64,000 bases of DNA from a virus (IMGVR_UViG_3300033463_000005:194510-258509); one strand, 5' to 3'; shown: positions 9,357-53,456, counted from the stretch's first letter. The notes: generated by a model from the sequence alone, not told the origin. Numbers and translations: made by a program.

Positions 9357-9798
9357 TCAAACATCCCTTTCGTACACAGAATTCTCTTAACTCTGGGAGT
9401 AGAGTTGAATTGATATAATCTTCATGCAGGTCATACCAATCATTCCACATTAACTCAAAATACTTCGATTCTTCGAAACCAGTCATGGAGTCAGAAGCTC
9501 TGATTGCAAGTCGATACATCAGATATCTTTGCTTTAACGTCATTTCCTGCATATACTCCATCAGAGCTCTAACAAGATGACGTTCAGGACGATCCTTGTT
9601 TTCCGGTTTATCACAATCCGCAAGCGTTGCATTGACACACGCAATATCCAGGTTTTCATCATCAACAACGACATGCGCCATACCACCACATGAACACCCA
9701 TCCAATGTATAAATCATCCATGTCAACACGATGCAAATTTGCATATTTGGGTGCCATTGTACACGTTCAATATTTGTAGAATTCATTTTCTCATTCAT
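9325..9798 (-). CDS. hypothetical protein
   Basis: coupled ORF. Confidence 0.7.
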   Translation of the reverse strand: MNEKMNSTNIERVQWHPNMQICIVLTWMIYTLDGCSCGGMAHVVVDDENLDIACVNATLADCDKPENKDRPERHLVRALMEYMQEMTLKQRYLMYRLAIRASDSMTGFEESKYFELMWNDWYDLHEDYINSTLLPELREFCVRKGCLNELEEAVQTS

Positions 9799-10271
9799 AT
9801 CATGGCCTCTTTCAGTTTCCGGTCTACTTCCTCATGAACCCGACGTTTTTGTTCCGCAAACCATTCATCCTCAGAAATTTCAATGATGTATATGGGAAGG
9901 GTTTTCCCATCGTCTCTGAAGTCCTGAGGTGAAATTCCAATATTTCCTCTTCTCGGCATTCCATCGGACTGCATGATTCTTGCAGGTACCATCCATTCAT
10001 CAAATGTGCACCCACCAATCATCATCCATTGTTCTTTCGGAACATCGATGACAGTGAACCACTCGTCGCAGTGAGTCGGGTTCACAATATTTCCCATCTT
10101 TCGGAAATACCGACCAATGAGCGGTTTGAATATTTCCTTTACGGGGTCCGTGATTTTTGTATTGATATCCGAGATCTTATTCCTCAATTCATCAATCTCT
10201 TTCTCAAGGGCAAGTTTATCCTCAATAAGAGAACTCATGTCTTTAAATTCTTCATGTGTCATATTATTCAT
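9795..10271 (-). CDS. hypothetical protein
   Basis: coupled ORF, GAGGAAGG RBS. Confidence 0.7.
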   Translation of the reverse strand: MNNMTHEEFKDMSSLIEDKLALEKEIDELRNKISDINTKITDPVKEIFKPLIGRYFRKMGNIVNPTHCDEWFTVIDVPKEQWMMIGGCTFDEWMVPARIMQSDGMPRRGNIGISPQDFRDDGKTLPIYIIEISEDEWFAEQKRRVHEEVDRKLKEAMI

Positions 10272-10596
10272 CCTTCCTCTCTTTGATATAATAATCTTGA
10301 TAAAATTTTCTTATTTCTTCATGAAATGTCCTTTCAACCAGATCAAAATCAATTAGGACCTTGTCAGCATCATCCCAATCATCAGAATCTGGATGTTTCG
10401 GTTTATAGTTGTCCAATGTAATAGGGAAATTCCATTGCGGTTCTCCACCGCTGGGTTCACTGATATGTATTACAGGACATCTACTATTACCGAATGATTG
10501 CATACGAATATCAAAATCATATCCATGATTAATAAACTTATGATATCCCAAAACTTGTACTTCCGCCAGAGATACTCGTTCTTCCATATCAATCAC
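10264..10596 (-). CDS. hypothetical protein
   Basis: coupled ORF. Confidence 0.65.
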   Translation of the reverse strand: MIDMEERVSLAEVQVLGYHKFINHGYDFDIRMQSFGNSRCPVIHISEPSGGEPQWNFPITLDNYKPKHPDSDDWDDADKVLIDFDLVERTFHEEIRKFYQDYYIKERKDE

Positions 10597-32929: not shown

Positions 32930-33106
32930 TTGAAACAACCAAATCAAAAAATTGAAATAATCATAATGATTATAACATGGATTCTGTTGATTGGTGGTAT
33001 TGTAATGATGGGTTTCGGTTTATTCAATGGGATTATCTGGTTATTCATTACTGGAATGATTGTGGAAATCATTTCGTGGTTACTTGCCACTGCATTTATT
33101 GATTAG
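32930..33106 (+). CDS. small membrane protein
   Basis: two hydrophobic helices; TTG start inferred. Confidence 0.55.
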   Translation: MKQPNQKIEIIIMIITWILLIGGIVMMGFGLFNGIIWLFITGMIVEIISWLLATAFID

Positions 33107-33119
33107 GAGGAAATGGAAG

Positions 33120-34121
33120 ATGAGACCAAGTAAGGAAGAATACTATCTGAATATTGCGAGAGTTGTTGCATCTCGTTCCACATGTTTGAGAAGAAACTAT
33201 GGTGCGGTCATTGTGAAAAATGACCGCATCGTTTCGACTGGATATAATGGTGCACCCCGTAATGATCCAAACTGTTGTGATATTGGAACATGTAAACGAA
33301 TTCAGAATAATGTTCCACATAATACCGGAGACTATTCGGATTGTTGTTCTGTCCATGCAGAACAGAATGCCATTATTCATGCAAATTATGAAGACATGCG
33401 TGACGCTGTCATGTATTTGGTTGGGGTTGATCCGAATACAAATGCATTAATTCCGGAAATTTCGTGTTGTCCGATTTGTCATAGGATGGCAAAGAATGCT
33501 GGACTGGTTTCTGTTGTCACACCATATTCTCACATTGTCTTGTCTGGAAAAAGTGTTGATAACATTTTACAACAAGAAACGATAACAGACACTGGAATAT
33601 CGGATACTGAAGAAGAGATAGAGCAGTTTGAAGATATGATGGAATCTTCTTATTGGGAAGATTACATGAAAGCATACTATAAACTGGAAATGTATTATGA
33701 TTCCCTATTAACGGCAGAATTTATTGAGAATCTTGCATATGTATTATATCTCAAAAATATGTCTGGTATGTATGCAGAACGAATCGGAATCGAGTGGAAT
33801 GATGGGAATTCTGATGAATTGATTCGTCAATTGAATTGTTGTCATTTGTATGTGGCAATTGATTCATTAAATGTGATTACGGCAGATGAAGATGTATCAT
33901 TCTTGACATTCGAAATCAAATATAACCGTGGTCCGAAACGATTGTATCGGGTTACATGCACAAATGCATTCTTGGAACAAATCGAACCATTGTTTGCATT
34001 CTTCCGTCATAAGATGCGAATTCGATTTAAAACACTTCATGATGATCAAACGATTTCACCGGAGTTACCATCTATCAAATATATGATGGATCATGCCAGA
34101 TACAAACGAGAACACAAATAA
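33120..34121 (+). CDS. dCMP deaminase with C-terminal extension
   Basis: RSTCLRR.YGAVIVK, TGYNG, HAEQNAI and CPIC zinc motifs; ~190 aa extra C-terminal region. Confidence 0.88.
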   Translation: MRPSKEEYYLNIARVVASRSTCLRRNYGAVIVKNDRIVSTGYNGAPRNDPNCCDIGTCKRIQNNVPHNTGDYSDCCSVHAEQNAIIHANYEDMRDAVMYLVGVDPNTNALIPEISCCPICHRMAKNAGLVSVVTPYSHIVLSGKSVDNILQQETITDTGISDTEEEIEQFEDMMESSYWEDYMKAYYKLEMYYDSLLTAEFIENLAYVLYLKNMSGMYAERIGIEWNDGNSDELIRQLNCCHLYVAIDSLNVITADEDVSFLTFEIKYNRGPKRLYRVTCTNAFLEQIEPLFAFFRHKMRIRFKTLHDDQTISPELPSIKYMMDHARYKREHK

Positions 34122-35599: not shown

Positions 35600-37294
35600 A
35601 TGAGCAGAATTTCAAAAGAAGTGTCCGAACGACAAAAGACATTTGGTAATGAAATGCCGGATCTGAAAATCGTTCGAAACTTTATGAATGGGATTTCATA
35701 TAAACTCGATCCCATTCAGACCCTGAAGATGATTGCCGCTTCATCCATCTTCGGTGAACCTTCCTACTATCGGGAAGGTGGTCTGAAAGAGAAGAAAATC
35801 ACATTTAAAACAGAGGAAAAGTGTGATATCAAACCTCTGTTCAAAGATATGATTCTCAATAAGACTACCACAGAGGTATTTGAAGAAGCAATTGATGCAG
35901 CACTGGAGTATGACTTCGGTGCAACAATTCAACTTGCAATTGAATTGCGTGAGAAGTATCTCATGCGGTTGAATCCGCAAGTCATCATGGTTCGTGCCGC
36001 AATCCATCCTAGTAGAAAGGAATGGACAAAACACCATAAAGGTGAATTCATCACGGCAAACAACCGCGTGATGAAACGTGGTGATGAACCAGCAACCCAA
36101 CTGGCGTATTTTATCTATGTTACCGGATCGAAAGCCAATATGCCATCGATTCTGAAACGGTCGTTGGCTGCAAGACTCGGAACATTGACAAAATACGAAG
36201 TCAACAAGTATAAGAATTCCGAAATGGGTATGATTAATACCGTGCGTATTGTTCATGCAAATTCGGATGTTCTGAACGAGTTGATGGAGACAGGTTCCGT
36301 GTCAGTTGGCACGGAAGAAAAAACGTGGGAGAATCTTCTCTCGGATGGAATGTCATGGAAAGACCTAGCATTGCAGGTATATGCCGGTAATATTAAACTC
36401 CCTGCAATGGCATTGATCAGAAACCTTCGAAATATCTTTATGGCATTTGCTGCAGATAATTCGGTAAAACCCGAAGTATATCAGTTTTTCCATGATAAAC
36501 TCATCAAAGATGTCCCGTATGCCAGACAGTTCCCGTTCCGATACAAATCGGCATATAATGCGATTGAATCTTCGCCATTACCAATTGCAATCAAGTATCC
36601 GTTACTGGATACATTGTCGCAGTGCGTGGATTTATCAATTGATAATATGCCGCATTTGATGGGAACAACCGTTTGCTTGACGGATAATTCGGGTTCTGCA
36701 TGGGGCGGCTTCACCTCGGAATTCGGATCAGTTTGTGTTGCAAACATTGATAACCTTTCATCTGTGATTGCCGCAAAAGCATCCGATGCAGGTATGGTTG
36801 TGAAGTTCGGTGATAACTTCATCGAATATCCAATCTCCCGTCGTGATTCGGTTTTGACACAGGTTAAACCGATTGATGCCCGCGGTAGTTCTGATGTGGG
36901 TGGTTCCACGGAAGGTGGAATCTGGAAGTTCATGAAGAAAGCGATTACCGAAAAGATTCATTTCGATAATCTGTTTATCTTCTCCGATCAGCAAGCCGGT
37001 ACAGGCGGGTTGTATGGAACTTCCGAAGATATGTACGAATACTGCCAGAAAGGATACAATGTCCGTAGCAGAATGATTGATGTATTCGCACTCATCAATG
37101 CATATCGCAAGGCGGTCAATCCAAGACTGAATGTATTCTCGGTCCAGACTGCTGGATATAATAACCTTGTTATTCCGACCATGACATATCGGACAGCTAT
37201 GCTCACGGGTTGGACTGGTAAGGAGGTTTCATTCGCTGCTGAGTACATCAGACAGTGGGATGCAATCGAAATGAAATCTGGCAATAATATGTGA
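35600..37294 (+). CDS. Ro60/TROVE domain RNA-binding protein (Rsr-like)
   Basis: N-terminal NFMNGISY...FGEPSYY, TWE..LS, ALIRNLRNI, QFPFRY..AY TROVE motifs; vWA MIDAS DNSGS and IFSDQQ; C-terminal GW. Confidence 0.92.
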   Translation: MSRISKEVSERQKTFGNEMPDLKIVRNFMNGISYKLDPIQTLKMIAASSIFGEPSYYREGGLKEKKITFKTEEKCDIKPLFKDMILNKTTTEVFEEAIDAALEYDFGATIQLAIELREKYLMRLNPQVIMVRAAIHPSRKEWTKHHKGEFITANNRVMKRGDEPATQLAYFIYVTGSKANMPSILKRSLAARLGTLTKYEVNKYKNSEMGMINTVRIVHANSDVLNELMETGSVSVGTEEKTWENLLSDGMSWKDLALQVYAGNIKLPAMALIRNLRNIFMAFAADNSVKPEVYQFFHDKLIKDVPYARQFPFRYKSAYNAIESSPLPIAIKYPLLDTLSQCVDLSIDNMPHLMGTTVCLTDNSGSAWGGFTSEFGSVCVANIDNLSSVIAAKASDAGMVVKFGDNFIEYPISRRDSVLTQVKPIDARGSSDVGGSTEGGIWKFMKKAITEKIHFDNLFIFSDQQAGTGGLYGTSEDMYEYCQKGYNVRSRMIDVFALINAYRKAVNPRLNVFSVQTAGYNNLVIPTMTYRTAMLTGWTGKEVSFAAEYIRQWDAIEMKSGNNM

Positions 37295-37312
37295 TTTTCA
37301 CATCACATATGT

Positions 37313-37402
37313 ATAGTTGCGATGCGGTGTAATCGGTTACTTCGCCATTTGTTCTAAAAATGATACGAGATCATATACCGGTTATGATATTCTCGCAACT
37401 AT
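37313..37402 (+). ncRNA. candidate Y-like RNA (Ro60-associated module copy 1)
   Basis: terminal stem ATAGTTGCGA/TCGCAACTAT, GATGCGG-helix-TACTTC ... helix-ATATTCTC; starts 19 nt after the Ro60 stop. Confidence 0.65.
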
Positions 37403-37406
37403 CATC

Positions 37407-37492
37407 GTATCAATATTATGATGCAGCCGCATGGGTTACTTCACCTGCATAAATGAATAATACCTGTGTATTTATTCTCATAATGTTGATAC
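37407..37492 (+). ncRNA. candidate Y-like RNA (module copy 2)
   Basis: terminal stem GTATCAATATTATGA/TCATAATGTTGATAC with GATGCAG..TACTTC..TATTCTC. Confidence 0.65.
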
Positions 37493-37496
37493 AAAT

Positions 37497-37570
37497 GCCC
37501 CGGTACCCGAATTGGCATAGGGAGCGGTCTCAAACACCGTGTTTTGTCGGTTCAAGTCCGACTCGGGGTA
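37497..37570 (+). tRNA. tRNA-Leu(CAA), short variable arm
   Basis: acceptor GCCCCGG/TCGGGGT, anticodon arm GCGGT-CTCAAAC-ACCGT, T-loop TTCAAGT. Confidence 0.8.
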
Positions 37571-37674
37571 CTAACTGATGCATGGCATAGATGTTTGCTC
37601 CAAGCATCTATCATCAGTTATCGCGGAATGTATATATGCGGGCATTGCGCCCGCATATATACTATTTCCTTTTG

Positions 37675-38835
37675 CCATGTGTAATGTAATTGTATAGATT
37701 GGAGTGTGTAGTATGAGTTGTGGTGAAGCAGAGTACTGTGAAACCTAGTCGTGTGATGGCATAGTGCATTCACGTTCGTTTTGTTCAGGTGGAGTGGGGT
37801 ATGGTAAAGCATGGTTGTGTGCAGGCATGTGCTAGTGCAGCAGGGTCGTGTTCTACTATGTTCAGGTGAAGCATGGTTATGTTCGGCTACGTTTAGGCGA
37901 AGCAGGGTCTTGTTTCATTGCGTTACGGTGAAGCAAGATGCTGTTCGGCTATGTGGTGGCAAAAGCAAGGCAGTGTCCTATTATGTTCGGGCGGAGCTAG
38001 TCATGTTCTATTACGTCTAGTCCTGGTATGGTTAAGTGGGGAGCTGTACATTGATGGTTTGATCAAGTGATATGCGGTGAAGCATTGGCAACGTGGAGTG
38101 ACGTGGAGAACTGTCTCGTCACGGCGTGCGCTATAACGTATGGTGACGGCAAAGCAACGTAGTGCGCGTCCATGCGACGGTTTAGTACCGAGCAGCCTAC
38201 CTATGTAATGGAACTGTCGAGTCGTGTCACGCAGAGTTCAGTATTTGTGGGGGACTGTACAGTTGAGAAAGGCAATGTTCTGGCAGGGAACGGTCAGGTA
38301 GTATTGTGTTTAGGTGGAGTAAGGTCGCGTTTTGTTTAGGCGGAGTAGCGTGAAGTTCAGTACAGTTCTGGAAACGTAACGTGACGTAACAAAGCGTCTG
38401 GAACATTGATGCAACGGTTCGGTGCCGTAGTGGTGGTTTGTGCTGTGTCGCTATTGTGTTGTCCTGCGAGGGAACGTGGGGGCAGCGTTCGGTTGTGCCC
38501 CGTATCGCAAAGGCAAGGCACGGTAGTGCGCATCCTATGTGTAGGTGGAGTCTCGTTGCGAGAGGCAACGCTTTGTTATGGTTTGGCTTAGCCACATATT
38601 ATTTCGATACAGTATGGGTTTAATCTGGAGCTGTGATGGAACGGCACTGTTTAGCAAGGCAGTGTCAGGGTTATCCTATGCGTTGTAGAACCAAGCGATG
38701 GAAATGTTATGGTCAGTGTACTGCCGTAACGTCGTGGTATTGTGAGGTAGCGTCATGTAATGCTTAGGCAACGCCGTGTAACACAATGTCACGTCCCATT
38801 TCGTCATGGAACCGCGCTGTACACACAGTATGGCA
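37675..38835 (+). repeat. non-coding pentamer-periodic array 1 (NN-xRY units, ~31-nt super-repeat GGYRAAGC)
   Basis: GGYRA(A)AGC-like anchors at 37865, 37896, 37927, 37958, 37990 (31,31,31,32 nt apart) separated by pentamers such as ATGGT TATGT TCGGC TACGT; G/T-rich, no credible ORF. Confidence 0.85.
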
Positions 38836-38911
38836 TCTGCCACAAAGTATGTAATCCGACATTTTGAAATATAAATGTCGGATATGCATACTCTATATTA
38901 CTTATGTAAAT

Positions 38912-38985
38912 CGGGGTTTAGCTCAGATGGTACGAGCGCCTGGTTTGGGACCAGGAGGCCATCGGTTCGAGACCGATATCCCCGA
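38912..38985 (+). tRNA. tRNA-Pro(TGG)
   Basis: CGGGGTT acceptor, CCTGG-TTTGGGA-CCAGG anticodon arm, TTCGAGA T-loop. Confidence 0.88.
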
Positions 38986-38990
38986 CTCGT

Positions 38991-39131
38991 CATTCATTCA
39001 GTTGATGCAGTGAATCAAGATACTTCGGTTAATAATATTATTGGAAAAATATTTATAAGGTTCAAATCCTTAAACACCCCAGCGATAGTTGGAGTGACAT
39101 ATTCTTGGTTCGATATTCTCAACAATGAATG
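38991..39131 (+). ncRNA. candidate YrlA-like RNA (module copy 3 enclosing a T-arm)
   Basis: GTTGATGCAG-TGAATCAAGA-TACTTC ... TAAGG-TTCAAAT-CCTTA ... TCTTGGTTC-GATATTCTCAAC. Confidence 0.65.
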
Positions 39132-39140
39132 TTTGACAAC

Positions 39141-39306
39141 TGTCATCAATATAAGTGTAATTGGCATTGGTGAGAACGCCGTTGTGAGATGTGGAATTAA
39201 AGAACATCTATTAGTGTATATGGCAAACTGCAGATTGTCATATATGCCACAATTCGCGGGCATGGGTCGAATAACTACCCCGAAATTACAAACTGTATTG
39301 ATGACA
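39141..39306 (+). ncRNA. unknown structured RNA
   Basis: 11-bp closing stem TGTCATCAATA/TATTGATGACA enclosing internal hairpins. Confidence 0.4.
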
Positions 39307-39309
39307 AAT

Positions 39310-39403
39310 GGTCATGTCTTCTAGTGGCAAGATACTTCATACATTGCAAGGCGCCCTTGTATTGTGTATGATAGAGACTCCGGTTCGATTCCGGACGTGA
39401 TTT
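39310..39403 (+). ncRNA. tRNA-like RNA with long hairpin in place of the anticodon arm
   Basis: acceptor GGTCATG/CGTGATT, D-loop TAGTGG, T arm TCCGG-TTCGATT-CCGGA; TCATACA..CAAGG-CGC-CCTTG..TGTATGA hairpin. Confidence 0.6.
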
Positions 39404-39487
39404 TCGTGGCATAGTTACACACGTCGATACATATCGATGCAACCAGTGTGTGGTTGCGGCTATGTCACGTACCAACGATATTCATTT

Positions 39488-39659
39488 ATACAAGTATGCA
39501 AGTGGTCATAAGCGGCTCACGTAAGTGAGAGGACACCTAATAAAAATACTCGTTCATGATTTCTCGTCCACTTATGTGGCGATGCAGTTGAATGGGTTAC
39601 TTCGATTACATATAATTGATCACATTATGTGTACGCGGGTTCGAATCCCGCCTTGTATA
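39488..39659 (+). ncRNA. tRNA scaffold carrying permuted Y-like module (copy 4)
   Basis: acceptor ATACAAG/CTTGTAT, D-loop AAGTGG, T arm GCGGG-TTCGAAT-CCCGC; insert ACTCGTTCA-TGATTTCTCG..CGATGCAG-TTGAATGGGT-TACTTC. Confidence 0.68.
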
Positions 39660-39673
39660 TATGAATATCTATG

Positions 39674-39809
39674 GGAGGATTAGCTCAGTTGGTAGAGCAC
39701 GAAACATAACTCGTTGCGTTATTCTCGGGACCCAAAGTGCCCGATGCAGTGTGATGAGTTACTTCGCATATGGCGCGCGTGGTCGTAGGTTCGAGTCCTA
39801 CATCCTCCG
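39674..39809 (+). ncRNA. tRNA scaffold carrying permuted Y-like module (copy 5)
   Basis: GGAGGAT/ATCCTCC acceptor, canonical D arm TAGCTCAGTTGGTAGAGC, T arm GTAGG-TTCGAGT-CCTAC; insert AACTCGTTGCG-TTATTCTCGGG..CCCGATGCAG-TGTGATGAGTT-ACTTC. Confidence 0.75.
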
Positions 39810-40334: not shown

Positions 40335-40429
40335 GGTGTATTAGCTCAGTGGGTAGAGCGCCAGTTCGTGGTTAGTGACTATGTCCTCATGAACTGTAGA
40401 GGTCGCGGGTTCGAGCCCCGTATACACTC
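40335..40429 (+). ncRNA. tRNA-like RNA with expanded anticodon arm
   Basis: GGTGTAT/ATACACT acceptor, canonical D and T arms, 9-bp CAGTTCGTG/CATGAACTG stem with 17-nt loop. Confidence 0.62.
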
Positions 40430-40434
40430 TTTAT

Positions 40435-40514
40435 TCCCGCATAGCTCAGACGGTAAAGAGCATAGCGAGCGGCCGTTAACCGCTAGGTCGTAGGTTCAAG
40501 TCCTACTGCGGGAA
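40435..40514 (+). tRNA. atypical tRNA-Asn(GTT) (insertion after D arm, C33)
   Basis: same acceptor and T arm as the 39911 tRNA; AGCGG-CCGTTAA-CCGCT; ~6 extra nt between D and anticodon stems. Confidence 0.62.
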
Positions 40515-40642: not shown

Positions 40643-41545
40643 ATGTCAAAACCGCATAATGAAAAGAGAGTTGAATTTGTATCAGCTCGCATCAAAGATC
40701 TGCAGGATACAATTGCGGCACTGCAGAAAATTCTTGACAATCCTGACATAGGCGAAAAACGAGTAGTTGAAGAACTCGGGTTAGACTTTGCGAAATATCG
40801 TCGCTTCGTTTATGATCTTACCTGGATAAACAAAGCGACAGTATCCGCAAATGTAACTGATATGAAGCCAATCAAAAACTGTGTAACATGCTGCTGGCAA
40901 GAATTGTTGTGGTTGGATATATGTCGTTGCAACTCGGCTAATATAGCTGTGGCGCCAACAGACACAGTTGAAACGATTGACAACATCATTTCGGAATTGT
41001 CCGAAAGAGAGCAATTGGTTATACATATGCGATTCGAGGAAGGTTTGTTCCTCGATGAATGTGCTAAAAGGATTGGTGTAACTCGCGGACGTGCTGGTGA
41101 GATTTTGAAACGGGCAGAGACGAGAATCAAATACAAGTATGACAGACTCAGACTTGGCGATGGTAAATATGGAACCATCATCGGAATGCAACGCCGATTG
41201 GAAGACGATCTCGAGATCAAAATAAAAAGAGAGATCATCGAGAAGTTGGACTGCAGAATCGAATCTCTTGCAGCCCTAATAAAGGATGCGTATAATACTA
41301 TAAATGGCGCTGAAGAAAAACAAAAAGAATCGACTTCCTATGTGAGACTATTGCGTTATACCCCGCTTGAAAATCTGGAATTATCGGTAAGATCATATAA
41401 TTGTCTGAAGCGAGCGGGATACAAATGTCTCAATGATTTCTGTGACAAAACTCTCACCGATATTAAGAAAATAAGGAACATTGGTAGGAAATCATACGAA
41501 GAGATTGTTGAGAAGCTCACAGAAGTGGGCATATGTTTGGAATGA
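40643..41545 (+). CDS. sigma-70 region-4 HTH fused to RNA polymerase alpha-CTD
   Basis: LSEREQLVIHMRF..GLFLDECAKRIGVTRGRAGEI (sigma r4); PLENLELSVRSYNCLKRAG...KIRNIGRKSYEEI (alphaCTD). Confidence 0.85.
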   Translation: MSKPHNEKRVEFVSARIKDLQDTIAALQKILDNPDIGEKRVVEELGLDFAKYRRFVYDLTWINKATVSANVTDMKPIKNCVTCCWQELLWLDICRCNSANIAVAPTDTVETIDNIISELSEREQLVIHMRFEEGLFLDECAKRIGVTRGRAGEILKRAETRIKYKYDRLRLGDGKYGTIIGMQRRLEDDLEIKIKREIIEKLDCRIESLAALIKDAYNTINGAEEKQKESTSYVRLLRYTPLENLELSVRSYNCLKRAGYKCLNDFCDKTLTDIKKIRNIGRKSYEEIVEKLTEVGICLE

Positions 41546-49479: not shown

Positions 49480-50590
49480 GTAAAGTATAAGTATTGGTCT
49501 TGTATGAATCTGTGCTGATATGTACTGGTAGAGTAGGGTTATGTGGCGAGGTGTAGATGATTCGTCGTGTAACGTCTAGGTTTGGTATGCCATGATCATG
49601 TCATCCGCGTCCAGGTACGGTCAGGCTTCACATGTTAACGTGATACAATGCATCGGTGAAGTCCTGTAATGTTTAGCTGTGATGATTGTAATGGATTCGT
49701 CATGCAACGCCAAGGCAAAGTGTTATGATGATTAGTGACAGACGGTGTCGGTGAAGTGCGGCGAGGAAGCGTATGATTTCGCATGGGTTTGACAAGGTGG
49801 AGGAATGTGGAACAACGCGTTGGTTTTGTTTGGTTTAGTAATGCAAAGGCAACGTGGGGCTGGGTTTGGTTTGATTCGGTTTGGTAACGGCCTAGATAGG
49901 TTATGTCTCGTATGTCGGTGTTCCGGTGCAGTCCAGCAGAGCAGTGTCAGCACTGTCCTGGTATCGTGTGGCAACTCGAAGTTACGATATGATTCGCGAT
50001 TGTAAGGCAAGGTATGATGATGCTTTGGCAAAGAGAAGCGATGTCGGATCTCGTGGGGTTTTGTGCCGGTGAGGCGTCGTTTAGTTTCACACCGTGTCGG
50101 TACTGAAAAGTTAGACTATGTAGCGGCATAGTCATACGATGTTTGGGCTGTGTTTATCAGTGTGCTGGTTCTGCAAAGTAAAGTGGTGTCCTGTATGGTG
50201 TTGGTGATGTGCAGAATAGTGATGTTTCGGCGTTGTAAGGCTGTGCGGAACATCGTGTTGGTACAGTGTCGAAGGCTTGTGTTGTGTCGGTGTGGTGTTG
50301 TGACATCTCATATCGTAGCGTGGGGTATGGTGTATCCTAGTTTGTATAGGCACCGTACTCTCCCGTTTCATACCGCGAAGTTATGTGATGGCGCCGTAAT
50401 GTCAAACTACGTGGCGTCCGGTCCTGGCAAAGCTCACTCTTGTGCAGTAAAGGTTTGGCACTGTCATATTGAGTGCTGTGCTGGCAACGTACCATTCTGC
50501 ATCATATCGTGTTGGTATGGTGACGATGCGTTGCGTACAGTTGCACAAGGTTACGCCGAGGTAAATCATGGCCTAATTATGCAATGACCG
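49480..50590 (+). repeat. non-coding pentamer-periodic array 2
   Basis: e.g. 49856-49885 GGGGC TGGGT TTGGT TTGAT TCGGT TTGGT; 50287-50331 TCGGT GTGGT GTTGT GACAT CTCAT ATCGT AGCGT GGGGT ATGGT; GGYRAAGY-like anchors. Confidence 0.82.
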
Positions 50591-50646: not shown

Positions 50647-50728
50647 GTCTGCATGGCGAAATTGGCAGACGCGTAGGATTTAGGTTCCTATGTCGAAAGA
50701 CGTCTCGGTTCAAATCCGAGTGCAGACA
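50647..50728 (+). tRNA. tRNA-Leu(TAG)
   Basis: GTCTGCA/TGCAGAC acceptor, TAGGA-TTTAGGT-TCCTA, long variable arm. Confidence 0.9.
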
Positions 50729-50735
50729 CTCATAT

Positions 50736-50768
50736 GCCGCTGTGGCGAAATTGGTAGCACATGACAGA
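50736..50768 (+). pseudogene. 5' half of interrupted tRNA-Leu(TAA)
   Basis: GCCGCTG-TGGCGAAATTGGTAG...ACAGA; pairs with the 3' half at 51417-51467. Confidence 0.75.
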
Positions 50769-50782
50769 AAGGAGGTGATAAC

Positions 50783-51328
50783 GTGAATAATTATGATGAT
50801 ACAAATTTATATGCAATTTTTGATGCATTTATGAAATATGGTGATTTTTATCCACATGAGATACCAGGATTTCCTGGCTATTATATCAATAGATTTGGAA
50901 TTATGTTTGATAAAAATAGAAATGAAATTGAACCATACCAATATCCAAATCAATATAAAATGGTATATTTAACTGATCAATACGGGAATCATCGTGTTTT
51001 TGGAATCCATCAACTTGTTGCAATGACATTTGATCCAGATTGGTTTCCAGGTTGTATTGTCCATCATATAGATGGAAACAAATACAACAATAATGATTGG
51101 AATTTAGAATGTATGAGTCGTGCACAACATACATCAATGCATAATCCATTACGTTATATTGATAAAATCGAGACATGTGATATTTGTGGTAAAAAATTTA
51201 TATGGAAAGCAAGCACTCAACAATATTATTATTCCGATATAAAGCGTGGTGTTCATCGTATTAAAACATGCTCACCAAGTTGTCAGTCATATGCTGGTCG
51301 AATGACACAACTAGGTCGAGCATATTAA
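50783..51328 (+). CDS. HNH homing endonuclease (NUMOD4-HNH)
   Basis: IPGFPGYYINRFG, IHQLVAMTF, VHHIDGNKYNNNDWNLE, C-terminal Zn motif. Confidence 0.9.
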   Translation: MNNYDDTNLYAIFDAFMKYGDFYPHEIPGFPGYYINRFGIMFDKNRNEIEPYQYPNQYKMVYLTDQYGNHRVFGIHQLVAMTFDPDWFPGCIVHHIDGNKYNNNDWNLECMSRAQHTSMHNPLRYIDKIETCDICGKKFIWKASTQQYYYSDIKRGVHRIKTCSPSCQSYAGRMTQLGRAY

Positions 51329-51334
51329 ATATTT

Positions 51335-51416
51335 GGCCCCGTATTCGAATAGGCAGAGAAGACGAACTTAAAATTCGTTGTCGTAAGACGTGTGGGTTCA
51401 AGTCCCATCGGGGCTA
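51335..51416 (+). tRNA. tRNA-Leu(TAA)
   Basis: GGCCCCG/CGGGGCT acceptor, ACGAA-CTTAAAA-TTCGT, variable arm. Confidence 0.85.
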
Positions 51417-51467
51417 TTAAAATCTGTTGCCGGATACGGCGTACCGGTTCAAATCCGGTCAGCGGCA
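51417..51467 (+). pseudogene. 3' half of interrupted tRNA-Leu(TAA)
   Basis: TTAAAA-TCTGT-variable arm-ACCGG-TTCAAAT-CCGGT-CAGCGGC-A. Confidence 0.75.
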
Positions 51468-51475
51468 TTCTCATT

Positions 51476-51509
51476 GGGCTTGTAGCGCAGTCGGTTAGCA
51501 CTACCGCCT
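51476..51509 (+). pseudogene. 5' half of interrupted tRNA (Ile-like)
   Basis: GGGCTTG-TAGCGCAGTCGGTTAGCAC-T-ACCGC-CT; pairs with 52122-52158. Confidence 0.7.
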
Positions 51510-51525
51510 ATATAGCATACTCAAT

Positions 51526-51598
51526 GGGTCGATAGCATAAAGGTAAGTGCCCCTGTCTCATAAACAGTATTATCCGGGTTCGAATCCCGGTCGACCCA
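51526..51598 (+). tRNA. tRNA-Met/Ile2(CAT)
   Basis: GGGTCGA/TCGACCC acceptor, CTGT-CTCATAA-ACAG, CCGGG-TTCGAAT-CCCGG. Confidence 0.82.
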
Positions 51599-51632
51599 TA
51601 CTAATTATTTCTAATATAATGGAGGTTACATC

Positions 51633-52109
51633 ATGAATAATTTAGACACAAACGTGACCGGATTACTAACAGAAATGCAAGTTCAACGAGAATTCATAAA
51701 ACGCGGTTTTGGAGTTTCTGTTCCATTAAACCCATCTGAGCGATATGACTTAATCGTTGACGCATTTGGTGGATTATTCAAAGTCCAAGTAAAAACAGCA
51801 ATTGATCTCGAATCAGATGATGGTTTTATGATATATACATCATCTGTTCACAAAAAACATGGTGTGTGGGACAGAAAATGTTATGACGAAAATGAGGTTG
51901 ATTTGTTTGCAACCGTACATAATGACACTGTTTACGTTATCCCATATCCCGATGCCGGAACAATGTCACAGATAACACTTAGAACAAAACCAACCAAAAA
52001 TGGTCAAGAGATTAATATTCATTATGCTGATCACTATGAATTGGATAACGTAATAGGCAGATGGAATAATTTAACTGATTCTAATAAGCAACAACTGCTT
52101 ATTGAATAA
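51633..52109 (+). CDS. PD-(D/E)XK homing-type endonuclease
   Basis: G..TE...FIKRG..VSVP....RYDLIVD......VQVKT...Y...EVDLFA pattern. Confidence 0.85.
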   Translation: MNNLDTNVTGLLTEMQVQREFIKRGFGVSVPLNPSERYDLIVDAFGGLFKVQVKTAIDLESDDGFMIYTSSVHKKHGVWDRKCYDENEVDLFATVHNDTVYVIPYPDAGTMSQITLRTKPTKNGQEINIHYADHYELDNVIGRWNNLTDSNKQQLLIE

Positions 52110-52121
52110 GGGCTCGCTGGA

Positions 52122-52158
52122 AAGCGGTTGGTCCTGGGTTCGAGTCCCAGCGAGCCCA
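52122..52158 (+). pseudogene. 3' half of interrupted tRNA (Ile-like)
   Basis: AA-GCGGT-TGGTC-CTGGG-TTCGAGT-CCCAG-CGAGCCC-A. Confidence 0.7.
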
Positions 52159-52210
52159 TCATGTAATATATTTTCAACGGTATATTACATATGAATATAG
52201 AAATGAATAT

Positions 52211-52296
52211 GCCTGAATGTCCGAGCGGTCGAAGGAGGCGGTCTTGAAAACCGTTAGACGAAAGTCTCGTGGGTTCGAATCCTACTTCAGGCGCCA
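52211..52296 (+). tRNA. tRNA-Ser(TGA)
   Basis: GCCTGAA/TTCAGGC acceptor, GCGGT-CTTGAAA-ACCGT, variable arm, G73, CCA. Confidence 0.92.
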
Positions 52297-52664
52297 CTTG
52301 CGGGTATTCATTTCGTTGTCCTTTCAAAATTAAACCTTATAATCCGTGTGGTTTACAAGTGGAGATTTCTCCATGGAGGTTTACACACCTCGAACTTTCC
52401 CGTATGTGCACATACGGTTGATATACCAAAACCGGTTGGTTGATACCATAGATGATCACTATGGTGCGGTATTATTAATAAACATTGAATCCGCTTAATA
52501 TCCCACAAACCATCGATGTGACTCGGAAACGAAAGGATCCATACAAGAACTTTATGAACATATTGTGCCGTTCATGAAGAGGTTAATCCGGACACGACTT
52601 CTATCGATAATTGCCCCATAGTTTTCGGTCTATGGGGAATCAATATAAACATGGAGGAATGAAT

Positions 52665-52853
52665 ATGACAACAAATTCAACAAAAACAACCGTCAAAGGT
52701 GGAGTATCGTTTCTCGAATTACTACAGCTTGCATTGATTGTTTTGAAGTTGTGTAAAATCATTACATGGAGTTGGTGGTGGGTGTTAGCACCGACTTGGA
52801 TTCCAATTCTGATTCTGATATTGGTTGTAATCGTTGTTATGAAACAAAAATGA
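52665..52853 (+). CDS. small membrane protein
   Basis: GGVSFLELLQLALIVLKLCKIITWSWWWVLAPTWIP motif, GGAGG RBS. Confidence 0.75.
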   Translation: MTTNSTKTTVKGGVSFLELLQLALIVLKLCKIITWSWWWVLAPTWIPILILILVVIVVMKQK

Positions 52854-52974
52854 TAATTGATGGTGGTGGTCATCCTGTGACGGTACAAATGTAGACCTTG
52901 CGTACGAAGTCATCTACTGTATTCGTGACAAAGTATGTGTGATATGGGTGTATTCAATTCCATCACCACATTAT

Positions 52975-53047
52975 GCTGGATTAGCTCAGTTGGTAGAGCG
53001 GCTGATTTGTAATCAGCAGGTCGGGGGTTCAAGTCCGTCATCCAGCT
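52975..53047 (+). tRNA. tRNA-Thr(TGT)
   Basis: GCTGGAT/ATCCAGC acceptor, GCTGA-TTTGTAA-TCAGC. Confidence 0.92.
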
Positions 53048-53051
53048 TCAA

Positions 53052-53373
53052 CCTGTGTTGAGCATATCTCAACCAAACGATCTAATGGTATGGGTTACAG
53101 TTTCAACGAGGTTACCATATCGAAAAAAAAAGGGTTCCAGGATGGGGTCCCTGGAAGCTGTATTCAGTCGCGAATGGTACGGCCGATGTTTAGGGAGGCA
53201 AGCATACAAACCTTCCACTCGTGGTGAAAGAGACGGGTTTCACTCATGGGGATTGATCACCCTGTGTAGATAGCTTTGATCATCCTATATAAGCCGGCTT
53301 GACGGGGTCGTAGTGTATCAGATGCTCGCGGTGAGGGAACAACCGCCAGCCAATCAACCAGATACATCCGTCA
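53052..53373 (+). ncRNA. unknown structured RNA between tRNA-Thr and tRNA-Gln
   Basis: GC-rich, multiple helices (GTTGAG/CTCAAC, TTCCAGG/CCTGGAA, TGACGG/CCGTCA, TGTATC/GATACA); no credible ORF. Confidence 0.45.
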
Positions 53374-53381
53374 TTTTTGGG

Positions 53382-53456
53382 TGGGGTATCGCCAAGTGGA
53401 AAGGCGCCAGACTTTGACTCTGGTATTCGTAGGTTCAAATCCTGCTACCCCAACCA
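53382..53456 (+). tRNA. tRNA-Gln(TTG)
   Basis: TGGGGTA/TACCCCA acceptor, CCAGA-CTTTGAC-TCTGG, CCA. Confidence 0.92.

What the first reader, a model, noticed from the sequence alone, without database searches (positions are those of the whole stretch)
35600..39809. Phage Ro60/TROVE gene followed by five copies of a covarying Y-RNA-like module
Seen: immediately after the Ro60 stop, and again in the tRNA cluster, a module recurs five times (37313, 37407, 38991, 39488, 39674). One strand is GATGC(A/G)G-[helix]-TACTTC and the other is [helix']-N2-4-(A/T)TTCTC. The flanking motifs are conserved while the helix sequences differ yet keep pairing (GTAATCGGT/ACCGGTTAT; GCATGGGT/ACCTGTGT; GAATCAAGA/TCTTGGTTC; TGAATGGGT/ACTCGTTCA; GTGATGAGTT/AACTCGTTGC), which is compensatory covariation. 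Known: bacterial Ro60 (Rsr) binds Y RNAs encoded next to it through a bulged helix. Inference: a family of phage Y RNAs whose Ro-binding motif differs from the vertebrate GGUCCGA/UUGACC consensus.
Basis: partly seen in the sequence, partly recalled or inferred. Interest (0 to 1): 0.8.

Follow-up and report, generated by a model that had tools for sequence, protein, structure and literature searches.

The report
Phage Ro60 gene with Y-RNA array
A 258-kb gut or rumen-type phage encodes a Ro60 ring protein followed by five small RNAs that share one conserved two-helix "handle" and carry different tRNA-derived pieces: a real, widespread variant of the known Ro60/Y-RNA particle that Rfam's YrlA model does not detect at its threshold.

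Summary
The 5' motif GATGCRG-N10-TACTTC occurs five times in the window and in the whole 258.5-kb genome, where chance predicts none. All five lie on the + strand within 2.5 kb after the gene at 35600-37294. Each has a cognate 3' strand followed by (A/T)TTCTC.

The gene is a true Ro60: its predicted fold matches only Ro60 structures over its full length.

The module is not a local oddity. A covariance model built from it finds 202 hits in 74 loci holding relatives of this gene. All are on the gene's strand and most abut it. The same holds in whole phage genomes and in Bacillota genome assemblies. Both helices covary strongly.

The handle is a diverged form of the bacterial YrlA Ro60-binding module, but Rfam's YrlA model stays below its threshold.

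The cargo varies: anticodon-arm look-alikes, T arms, and whole tRNA shapes. Copies 4 and 5 are a rare circular permutation, in which the handle is capped and inserted into an otherwise normal tRNA-like cloverleaf.

Ro60 binding is inferred, not shown.

This scan has reported the same kind of Ro60 array before on other phage DNA.

I class it as a new variant of a known kind.

The parts
35600..37294 (+). Ro60 ortholog (TROVE HEAT-repeat ring plus vWA domain), 564 aa
   Evidence: Pfam TROVE scores 26.3 bits against a cut-off of 23. phmmer matches the Thermus phage phiLo Ro60 (9KOP/9L5Y) at E=1.1e-7. The AlphaFold model has pLDDT 81 and pTM 0.79. Its first 12 listed Foldseek matches are all Ro60 structures (phiLo, D. 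radiodurans Rsr, human, Xenopus), with E from 1e-15 to 2e-8 over about 500-600 aligned columns. The DxSxS residues D362, S364 and S366 are invariant in 24 relatives.
37313..37402 (+). Y-like RNA 1: handle closed by an outer helix, with an anticodon-arm-like hairpin as cargo
   Evidence: R1 scores 75.8 bits. The minimum-free-energy fold is the handle. Its elements are:
- P1: 37313-37322 with 37393-37402
- GATGCGG: 37321-37327
- P2: 37328-37337 with 37377-37386 (10/10 bp)
- TACTTC: 37338-37343
- ATTCTC: 37389-37394

The cargo is UUCG/CGAG enclosing a 5-bp stem with the 7-nt loop GUUCUAA.
37408..37491 (+). Y-like RNA 2: handle closed by a 12-bp outer helix, with a short cargo
   Evidence: R1 scores 61 bits. 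GATGCAG is at 37420-37426, TACTTC at 37437-37442, the P2 3' strand at 37462-37469 and ATTCTC at 37474-37479. The unit lies 5 nt after RNA 1 and 5 nt before tRNA-Leu(CAA) at 37497-37571.
37630..37662 (+). Intrinsic terminator closing the unit Ro60 - RNA 1 - RNA 2 - tRNA-Leu
   Evidence: A 14-bp stem with 7 G-C pairs followed by a T-rich tail.
38991..39131 (+). Y-like RNA 3: handle closed by an outer helix, with a T-arm-like hairpin and further hairpins as cargo
   Evidence: R1 scores 46.6 bits. The minimum-free-energy fold is the handle. GATGCAG is at 39004-39010, and P2 pairs 39011-39020 with 39103-39112 (10/10). ATTCTC is at 39115-39120. The T-arm-like AAGGTTCAAATCCTT lies inside the cargo. 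The unit starts 4 nt after tRNA-Pro (38912-38986).
39488..39659 (+). Y-like RNA 4: permuted form, a tRNA-like scaffold with open acceptor ends and a capped handle inside
   Evidence: The acceptor stem ATACAAG/CTTGTAT pairs 7/7, and the T arm is at 39635-39651. The handle elements are:
- P2 3' strand: 39548-39556
- TTTCTC: 39560-39565
- capping hairpin: 39566-39580
- GATGCAG: 39581-39587
- P2 5' strand: 39588-39597 (9/9)
- TACTTC: 39598-39603

R2 scores 68.4 bits. ARAGORN and Rfam's tRNA model do not call it a tRNA.
39674..39809 (+). Y-like RNA 5: permuted form, a cloverleaf with canonical acceptor, D and T arms and a capped handle inserted after the D arm
   Evidence: Rfam tRNA scores 46.5 bits with a 76-nt insertion in the anticodon-arm position. 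The handle elements are:
- P2 3' strand: 39709-39718
- ATTCTC: 39721-39726
- cap: 39727-39742
- GATGCAG: 39743-39749
- P2 5' strand: 39750-39759 (10/10)
- TACTTC: 39760-39765

R2 scores 66.5 bits.

Best explanation
These are five Y-RNA-like partner RNAs of the phage's own Ro60 protein. Each has two parts.

The first part is a constant handle. It consists of an outer helix P1 that ends in G-C and A-U pairs, an internal loop (5' UGCRG facing 3' NN-AUUC), a roughly 10-bp helix P2, and then the invariant UACUUC. This is a diverged form of the YrlA Ro60-binding module and is the inferred docking site for the Ro60 ring.

The second part is a variable cargo grafted on the far end of P2. It mimics tRNA or parts of tRNA: an anticodon-arm-like hairpin in RNA 1, a T arm in RNA 3, and whole cloverleaves in RNAs 4 and 5.

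The RNAs are transcribed with the Ro60 gene and the tRNA cluster. Only 4-5 nt separate RNAs 1-3 from their nearest neighbour (each other or a tRNA), and 14-17 nt separate RNAs 4-5 from theirs. They are therefore probably released by the tRNA-processing enzymes.

By analogy with Rsr-Y RNA-PNPase particles, the cargo most likely tethers Ro60 to, or lures, proteins that recognise tRNA.

Shown here: the motif, its covariation, its exclusive linkage to Ro60 genes, and the tRNA-like nature of the cargo. Inferred: Ro60 binding, processing, and the tether or decoy role.
For: - Ro60 identity of the gene.
- Five copies against 0 expected, and none elsewhere in the 258-kb genome.
- Sequence pattern in relatives: in 79 viral loci with relatives of the gene, the strict 5' pattern occurs 90 times on the gene's strand, 0 on the other strand and 1 in reversed sequence.
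- Model R1 in viral loci: 202 hits at E<=0.1 in 1.16 Mb, all on the + strand, in 66 of 74 sources. Five of the eight sources without a hit are cut off just upstream of the gene.
- Whole genomes: all hits lie next to or within about 10 kb of the gene in genomes of 156-386 kb.
- Independent set of GTDB assemblies: 55 of 56 hits are on the gene's strand, beside it.
- Unbiased scan of 2.9 million viral contigs: 34 pattern matches in 33 stretches, and 16 of them have the Ro60 gene within the fetched stretch. Among matches with no Ro60 gene there, most have poorly paired helices.
- Covariation: 83.7% of cells are paired against 58.3+-1.6 in shuffles. The covariation score is 0.648 against 0.204, reached by 0 of 500 shuffles, and slid controls stay at or below 0.153. 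Cognate against non-cognate partners score 0.856 against 0.555+-0.016 for P2, and 0.881 against 0.528+-0.023 for P1.
- No other neighbouring protein of the window is conserved with the module.
- Relation to YrlA: relatives have units with a T arm, capped acceptor and D arm that Rfam YrlA hits at 37 bits. The 5' heptamer varies as GAUGCRG or GAAGCRG, and the latter fits the published GNCGAAN0-1G motif (PMC4201824).
- Phage Ro60 binding genome-encoded Y-like RNAs has been shown experimentally for Thermus phage phiLo (PMC12135203).
- A terminator follows tRNA-Leu.
Against: - There are no binding, expression or end-mapping data.
- Rfam YrlA stays below its gathering score of 69 bits. It reaches 25.8 bits in the window, and only on a chimeric alignment, and at most 37 bits in relatives.
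- The window's copies lack the published CGAA core.
- Linkage could reflect co-transcription with tRNA clusters rather than physical binding, although the same linkage holds in bacterial chromosomal contexts without tRNA arrays.
- In one relative (G003) the units lie 8-9 kb from the gene.
- No RtcB, Rnl2-type ligase or CCA-adding enzyme gene was found in this phage, so an RNA-repair context is not supported here.
Confidence: 0.8

Rival explanations
1. The handle is a processing or stability element of the polycistronic tRNA and small-RNA transcript, or the binding site of a host factor. Under this view it sits near Ro60 genes only because both live in tRNA operons, and Ro60 does not bind it.
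For: The units are separated from tRNAs and from each other by only 4-17 nt. The two stacked helices with an internal loop could be a nuclease substrate. No binding data exist.
Against: The linkage is to the Ro60 gene, not to tRNAs in general. The second tRNA block of the window (50647-53456) has no unit. In whole genomes, no model hit lies more than about 10 kb from the Ro60 gene. The module also accompanies the gene in bacterial chromosomal contexts, such as Acetatifactor muris and loci holding a T-box or lysine riboswitch. The invariant loop sequences resemble the published Ro60-recognition motif.
Confidence: 0.1
2. Copies 4 and 5 are not two tRNA-like RNAs. Instead they form one YrlA-type RNA spanning 39581-39734. 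It would be built from the 5' strand of copy 4, the T arm of the first scaffold, the D arm of the second, and the 3' strand of copy 5.
For: Rfam YrlA aligns 39609-39723 at 25.8 bits. R1 aligns 39573-39734 at 29.3 bits. The two P2 strands can cross-pair over 8 bp, as read from the sequence.
Against: This reading has no outer helix and no acceptor-like hairpin. The segment CTTGTAT...GGAGGAT between the T and D arms is not self-complementary. In the permuted reading, by contrast, both acceptor stems pair 7/7, both caps close and extend the G-C and A-U pairs, and the cognate P2 strands pair 9/9 and 10/10. The same capped design recurs in four other viral contigs (loci L123, L131, L141, L193), in three of five cases inside a tRNA-like scaffold. 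Chen et al. warn that tandem tRNAs give exactly this false YrlA signal.
Confidence: 0.05
3. The module is an intron-like or self-cleaving insertion that interrupts tRNA genes and is removed to yield working tRNAs.
For: In copy 5, removing the insert would join CG to CGC-AUAUGGC-GCGCG, giving a 5-bp stem with a 7-nt loop. In several relatives an intact anticodon-type hairpin follows UACUUC.
Against: About 200 of the units are free-standing, closed by their own outer helix, and many have no tRNA body at all. Only 7 units, 5 of them distinct, are of the inserted type. No Rfam ribozyme or intron family matches. The loop left in copy 5 would have the anticodon AUG, which is not standard. The phage has no RtcB or Rnl2-type ligase gene.
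Confidence: 0.03

Closest known systems
Bacterial and phage YrlA-type Y RNAs bound by Rsr/Ro60 (Rfam RF02553; Chen et al. 2014, PMC4201824; Wang et al. 2018, bioRxiv 10.1101/312249)
   Same: - Encoded beside a Ro60 gene on the same strand.
- Modular build: a stem with a large internal loop, then a second helix, then a conserved UA, then a tRNA-like effector domain.
- Some relatives have the same order of T arm, capped acceptor and D arm.
- The 5' loop motif GA(A/U)GC overlaps GNCGAAN0-1G.
   Different: - Scores stay below Rfam's threshold, at 25.8-37 bits against 69.
- The window's copies have GAUGCRG, without the CGAA core.
- UACUUC and AUUCUC are nearly invariant, while the outer helix varies freely.
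- The phages carry arrays of 5-8 units, not one or two.
- The cargo is often only an anticodon-arm look-alike.
- Two copies here have free acceptor ends, which YrlA lacks.
Thermus phage phiLo Ro60 with Yrl1 and Yrl2 (Nucleic Acids Res 2025, PMC12135203; PDB 9KOP, 9L5Y)
   Same: A phage-encoded Ro60 whose partner RNAs are encoded next to the gene. It is the best sequence and fold match of the window's protein. Binding was shown there by gel shift and cryo-EM, and a complex with host PNPase was assembled.
   Different: Protein identity is only 18%. phiLo has two RNAs with a CGAA bulge, no tRNA-like cargo was reported, and the genes sit upstream of Ro60. No array and no permuted forms were described.
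Deinococcus radiodurans Yrn1
   Same: The Ro60-binding stem takes the place of the tRNA acceptor stem, and an anticodon-arm-like hairpin lies between the D- and T-like arms. Several relatives' first units have this design, and tRNA finders call them tRNAs (L129 at 9681-9751, L137 at 9668-9739, L126 at 9740-9808).
   Different: The handle sequence differs, and none of the window's five copies has this orientation.

Membership tests
Ro60 / Rsr (TROVE plus vWA) | HEAT-repeat ring (TROVE domain) followed by a von Willebrand A domain | tested here: met
   Pfam TROVE scores 26.3 bits against a cut-off of 23. The model has helices at residues 82-348 and then an alpha/beta domain at 353-561. Its first 12 listed Foldseek matches are all Ro60 structures over their full length, and vWA domains follow.
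Ro60 / Rsr (TROVE plus vWA) | MIDAS-type DxSxS motif in the vWA domain | tested here: met
   D362, S364 and S366 are invariant in 24 aligned relatives, as are T437 and D463.
Ro60 / Rsr (TROVE plus vWA) | Binds Y RNA on the outer face of the ring | not testable with these tools
   This needs a gel-shift, pull-down or structural experiment.
YrlA (Rfam RF02553) | Reaches the family's gathering score of 69 bits | tested here: not met
   The window reaches 25.8 bits, on an alignment that joins two neighbouring scaffolds. Nothing reaches the threshold in 8 phage loci and 10 bacterial loci. The best related units score 37.0 and 36.6 bits.
YrlA (Rfam RF02553) | Encoded within 4 kb of the Ro60 gene on the same strand (criterion of Chen et al. 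2014) | tested here: met
   All five copies lie 19 to about 2,500 nt after the stop codon, on the + strand. The same holds across relatives.
YrlA (Rfam RF02553) | 5' motif GNCGAAN0-1G | tested here: not met
   The window's copies read (N)GAUGCRG. The related heptamer GAAGCRG occurs in 60 of 149 family members. The motif is therefore related but not met in the window.
YrlA (Rfam RF02553) | Effector domain is a circularly permuted tRNA: T arm, then capped acceptor stem, then D arm | tested here: not met
   None of the five window copies has this order. RNA 3 has only a T-arm-like hairpin, and RNAs 4 and 5 are unpermuted with open acceptor stems. The feature is met in relatives, for example L129 at 10027-10162 and 10169-10315, and Acetatifactor muris L268.
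Y RNA in the general sense | The 5' and 3' ends pair to form the stem that carries the Ro60 site, and the variable module lies in the loop | tested here: met
   This is met for RNAs 1-3, where the minimum-free-energy folds give the handle. It is not met for RNAs 4-5, where the stem is capped and the ends lie in the acceptor stem.
tRNA (for RNAs 4 and 5) | Cloverleaf with a 5-bp anticodon stem and a 7-nt loop directly after the D arm | tested here: not met
   RNA 5 has acceptor, D and T arms (Rfam tRNA, 46.5 bits), but 76 nt fill the anticodon-arm position. ARAGORN calls neither RNA a tRNA.

The most novel reading that the evidence does not exclude
The array is a set of programmable tRNA decoys or adaptors. 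Each handle loads one Ro60 ring, and each cargo (an anticodon-arm look-alike, or a whole tRNA shape with free acceptor ends) lures or tethers a particular tRNA-recognising protein. Candidates include a host anticodon nuclease used in anti-phage defence, a tRNA-modifying enzyme, or an exonuclease. The phage would thereby protect or remodel the tRNA pool. The permuted RNAs 4 and 5 would be matured like tRNAs by RNase P and 3' processing, and perhaps CCA-tailed. That would make them the first Y RNAs with a tRNA-like free 3' end.
Probability: 0.2. Interest if true: 0.85.

Novelty: new variant of a known kind. Interest (0 to 1): 0.62.

Why it matters
Ro60 and Y RNAs are known from animals, bacteria and a few phages, but what the tRNA-like part of bacterial Y RNAs is for remains open.

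This family offers a natural experiment. One constant handle carries dozens of different tRNA-derived cargoes, from bare anticodon arms to complete cloverleaves, and in two circular permutations. It sits beside one protein in hundreds of large phages and Bacillota genomes.

The family gives three practical things:
- a covariance-model definition for RNAs that current annotation misses;
- a short, testable binding site: GAUGCRG, UACUUC and AUUCUC around a 10-bp helix;
- a direct way to ask whether phage Ro60 particles act on the tRNA pool or on tRNA-targeting defences.

Tried and rejected
1. A simple pattern scan of viral contigs for the 5' motif alone gave only single matches on either strand, probably chance, and was useless. 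A longer three-part pattern worked.

2. The search for related loci with the single protein found nothing. It worked with an alignment.

The closest relatives of the protein (66-67% identity, P0002-P0004) could therefore not be inspected, and conservation of copies 4 and 5 in near relatives is unknown.

4. Known ribozymes and introns: I compared the motifs with hammerhead, twister, pistol and hairpin cores from memory, and no Rfam family matched. This reading is rejected.

5. An RNA-repair context: no RtcB, Rnl2-type ligase or CCA-adding enzyme gene is present in the genome.

6. A model of the permuted form (R2) found no further strong examples beyond its 7 training sequences. Its other hits are mostly junctions of tandem units.

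7. I asked whether the anticodon-arm look-alikes are recent copies of the same phage's tRNAs. The loops and the adjoining pairs agree, but the stems differ, so they are not recent copies.

8. The supplements of Chen et al. 2014 and two reviews by the Wolin laboratory were not held. I could not check whether Bacillota or large-phage examples were already listed there.

Full report
**Observation.** The pattern GATGCRG-N10-TACTTC occurs five times in the window, at 37321, 37420, 39004, 39581 and 39743, all on the + strand. Shuffles give 0.00 expected. The same five are the only ones in the whole 258,509-base phage genome. Each has a cognate complementary strand followed by 2-4 nt and (A/T)TTCTC, with 8-10 of 8-10 positions paired.

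In copies 1-3 the two strands are closed by an outer helix, and ViennaRNA returns exactly this fold as the minimum-energy structure. In copies 4 and 5 the order is swapped and a small hairpin caps the outer helix.

**The protein.** The gene at 35600-37294 gives only a weak Pfam TROVE hit of 26.3 bits. It does match the Ro60 of Thermus phage phiLo by sequence. Its predicted structure (pLDDT 81) has Ro60 structures as all 12 of its first listed matches: phiLo, Deinococcus Rsr, human and Xenopus. These cover both the helical ring and the vWA domain. The DxSxS metal-site residues are invariant in 24 relatives. It is a Ro60 ortholog.

More than 2,000 relatives exist in public data, many on contigs of 140-285 kb.

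**Linkage to the gene.** I fetched 79 viral loci encoding relatives of 43-56% identity. The strict 5' pattern occurs there 90 times on the gene's strand, 0 times on the other strand and once in reversed sequence. Most copies lie directly after or before the gene, and up to seven stand in tandem.

A covariance model R1, built from 25 short units, finds 202 hits at E<=0.1 in 74 sources, all on the gene's strand. Sixty-six of the 74 sources have at least one hit, and five of the eight sources without one are cut off just upstream of the gene.

In whole genomes the hits are confined to the neighbourhood of the gene:
- the own genome has three strong hits, all beside the gene;
- a 170-kb genome has 7 of 7 within 1 kb after the gene;
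- a 156-kb genome has 4 of 4 adjacent;
- a 386-kb genome has 8 hits, all within about 10 kb;
- in one 250-kb genome the units lie 8-9 kb away.

In an independent set of bacterial assemblies from GTDB, 55 of 56 hits are on the gene's strand and next to it.

A three-part pattern scanned over all 2.9 million viral contigs gave 34 matches in 33 stretches. Sixteen have the Ro60 gene in the fetched stretch, and these have well-paired helices. Among the matches with no Ro60 gene there, most pair poorly. A few pair well: one of these (L236) lies on a contig that does carry the gene, and three others are short 4-5-kb fragments.

None of nine other proteins encoded around the window's gene is conserved in those loci, apart from one locus matching the deaminase-like ORF.

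**Covariation.** On alignment A2, 83.7% of cells form pairs against 58.3+-1.6 in shuffles. The covariation score is 0.648 against 0.204, reached by 0 of 500 shuffles, and structures slid by 1-3 columns give at most 0.153. Sixteen of 19 pairs change on both sides.

In an anchored test on 62 non-redundant units, cognate strands pair at 0.856 for the inner helix and 0.881 for the outer helix. Non-cognate partners give 0.555+-0.016 and 0.528+-0.023.

**Anatomy of the handle.** The outer helix P1 is free in sequence but always ends in G-C and A-U, formed by the GA of GAUGCRG and the UC of AUUCUC. Next comes an internal loop, 5' UGCRG facing 3' NN-AUUC. Then comes helix P2 of about 10 bp, and then UACUUC.

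Across 149 family members the 5' heptamer is GAUGCAG (50), GAAGCGG (35), GAAGCAG (25) or GAUGCGG (10). UACUUC and AUUCUC dominate at the other two sites. GAAGC fits the GNCGAAN0-1G motif that Chen et al. proposed as the Rsr recognition element of YrlA. YrlA has the same layout of helix, AUGC-containing loop, helix and conserved UA.

Some relatives carry units with a T arm, capped acceptor and D arm, which Rfam's YrlA model hits at 37 bits. But nothing reaches YrlA's gathering score of 69 bits in the window, in 8 phage loci or in 10 bacterial loci. The handle is thus a diverged YrlA-type module that Rfam's YrlA model does not detect at its gathering threshold.

**Cargo.** In the 149 units, hairpins with a stem of at least 5 bp and a 7-nt loop of the anticodon type (Y-U-NNN-R-N, T loops excluded) occur 38 times against 3.2+-1.6 in shuffled cargo. 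T-arm-like hairpins occur in 46 units. The commonest loops read as Lys UUU (8) and Asn GUU (7). Twenty-four of 38 have U at the third anticodon position. These hairpins share the loop and adjoining pairs with real tRNAs of the same phages but differ in the stems.

The five window copies carry the following cargo:
- RNA 1 carries UUCG/CGAG around a 5-bp stem with loop GUUCUAA.
- RNA 2 carries a short loop.
- RNA 3 carries a T-arm-like hairpin and others.
- RNA 4 carries a scaffold with a 7-bp acceptor stem, a GNRA hairpin, a 9-bp hairpin and a T arm.
- RNA 5 carries canonical acceptor, D and T arms.

**The permuted form.** In RNAs 4 and 5 the handle is capped and sits between the D arm and the hairpin that precedes the T arm. 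This is the same junction where the handle joins the cloverleaf in the YrlA-like relatives, so the two forms are circular permutations of one design.

I found the capped form only seven times (five distinct) in 1.37 Mb of Ro60 loci, and three of the five are inside tRNA-like scaffolds.

The alternative reading is a single YrlA-like RNA spanning 39581-39734, suggested by weak Rfam and R1 hits. It lacks an outer helix and an acceptor hairpin. It is also the tandem-tRNA artefact that Chen et al. describe. I reject it.

**Context.** The Ro60 gene, RNA 1, RNA 2 and tRNA-Leu are followed by a strong terminator at 37630-37662. The spacers separating RNAs 1-3 from their nearest neighbour (each other or a tRNA) are 4-5 nt, and those around RNAs 4-5 are 14-17 nt. 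This suggests release by tRNA-processing enzymes, which is an inference. All 12 tRNA genes of the phage lie in this window. No RtcB, Rnl2-type ligase or CCA-adding enzyme gene was found.

**Distribution.** The same protein family and handle occur in assemblies of Ruminococcus, Oscillospiraceae, Lachnospiraceae and others. These include the cultured Acetatifactor muris DSM 23669, which has one YrlA-shaped unit, and a 743-kb contig of a Bacillus isolate, which has four units. Some loci hold chromosomal markers, namely a T-box or a lysine riboswitch. The handle is therefore not phage-specific. What marks the large phages is the expansion to arrays of 5-8 units with varied cargo.

**Mechanism.** The best-supported reading is that the handle docks Ro60 and the cargo mimics tRNA. 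The cargo would then tether or lure tRNA-recognising proteins, as Y RNA tethers Rsr to PNPase in Deinococcus and, in vitro, in phage phiLo. Shown here are the motif, its covariation, its linkage and the nature of the cargo. Not shown are binding, transcript ends and any partner. A decoy role against tRNA-cutting defence nucleases is attractive but speculative.

**Novelty.** Phage Ro60 genes with neighbouring Y-like RNAs are in print: 22 phages in Chen et al. 2014, phiLo in 2025, and a mention for jumbo phages in PMC7824862. I found no description of this handle, of the arrays, of anticodon-arm cargo or of the permuted tRNA-embedded form. The paper library is incomplete, however.

Earlier notes of this scan describe the same kind of array on other phage genomes and the permutation in this window. 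My analysis reached the same picture from the sequence data.

Noticed in passing
window 37675-38835: A G/T-rich, ORF-poor repetitive stretch of about 1.2 kb lies between RNA 2/tRNA-Leu and tRNA-Pro/RNA 3. Earlier notes of this scan (e1-5666447, e1-5666448) read this and a second array at 49480-50590 as guide-RNA arrays of a CRISPR-related phage system. I did not test this.
   Followed up: no
window 39310-39403, 40335-40429, 40435-40514: Further tRNA-like genes have abnormal anticodon or D regions. One has a T arm at 39379-39395 but is called by no tRNA finder. A 95-nt Rfam tRNA hit has a 27-nt insertion in the anticodon loop. An 80-nt hit has 8 extra nt in the D loop. None carries the handle.
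   Followed up: partly
L126 5881-6524; L128 4335-4976; L140 6650-6773; L128 11077-11123: Related phages carry ROOL RNA (277-284 bits) 1.5-3 kb upstream of the Ro60 gene. They also carry DUF3800-I and DUF3800-XI RNAs in the same tRNA-rich region.
   Followed up: no
L123 5770-5950; L193 7170-7350: This permuted unit sits in a class-II-type tRNA scaffold. It has a long variable arm, an anticodon-type hairpin with GUA (Tyr-like) but A in place of U33, and a 3' end that reads ACCA after the acceptor stem. It might be matured, and possibly charged, like a tRNA.
   Followed up: partly
L307 3114-3781 (Bacillus sp. Brlt_9, 743-kb contig); L268 3753-3889 (Acetatifactor muris DSM 23669): Cultured bacteria carry the same Ro60 family with the same handle: four units upstream of the gene in the Bacillus, and one YrlA-shaped unit in Acetatifactor. 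These are tractable organisms for testing binding.
   Followed up: partly
window 33060-34121 and 40643-41545: A 353-aa protein with a cytidine/deoxycytidylate deaminase domain lies two genes upstream of Ro60. A 300-aa protein combines sigma-70 region 4 with an RNA polymerase alpha C-terminal domain and follows the tRNA cluster. Neither is conserved with Ro60 in relatives, apart from one locus (L124) that matches the deaminase-like ORF.
   Followed up: partly
L129 9681-9751; L137 9668-9739; L126 9740-9808; L128 9748-9809: In several relatives the first unit after the Ro60 gene is called a tRNA by ARAGORN or Rfam (Ser UGA or Lys UUU). There the handle's inner helix serves as the acceptor stem, and UACUUC takes the place of U8-A9 plus the D stem. 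This is a third way of joining handle and tRNA.
   Followed up: partly
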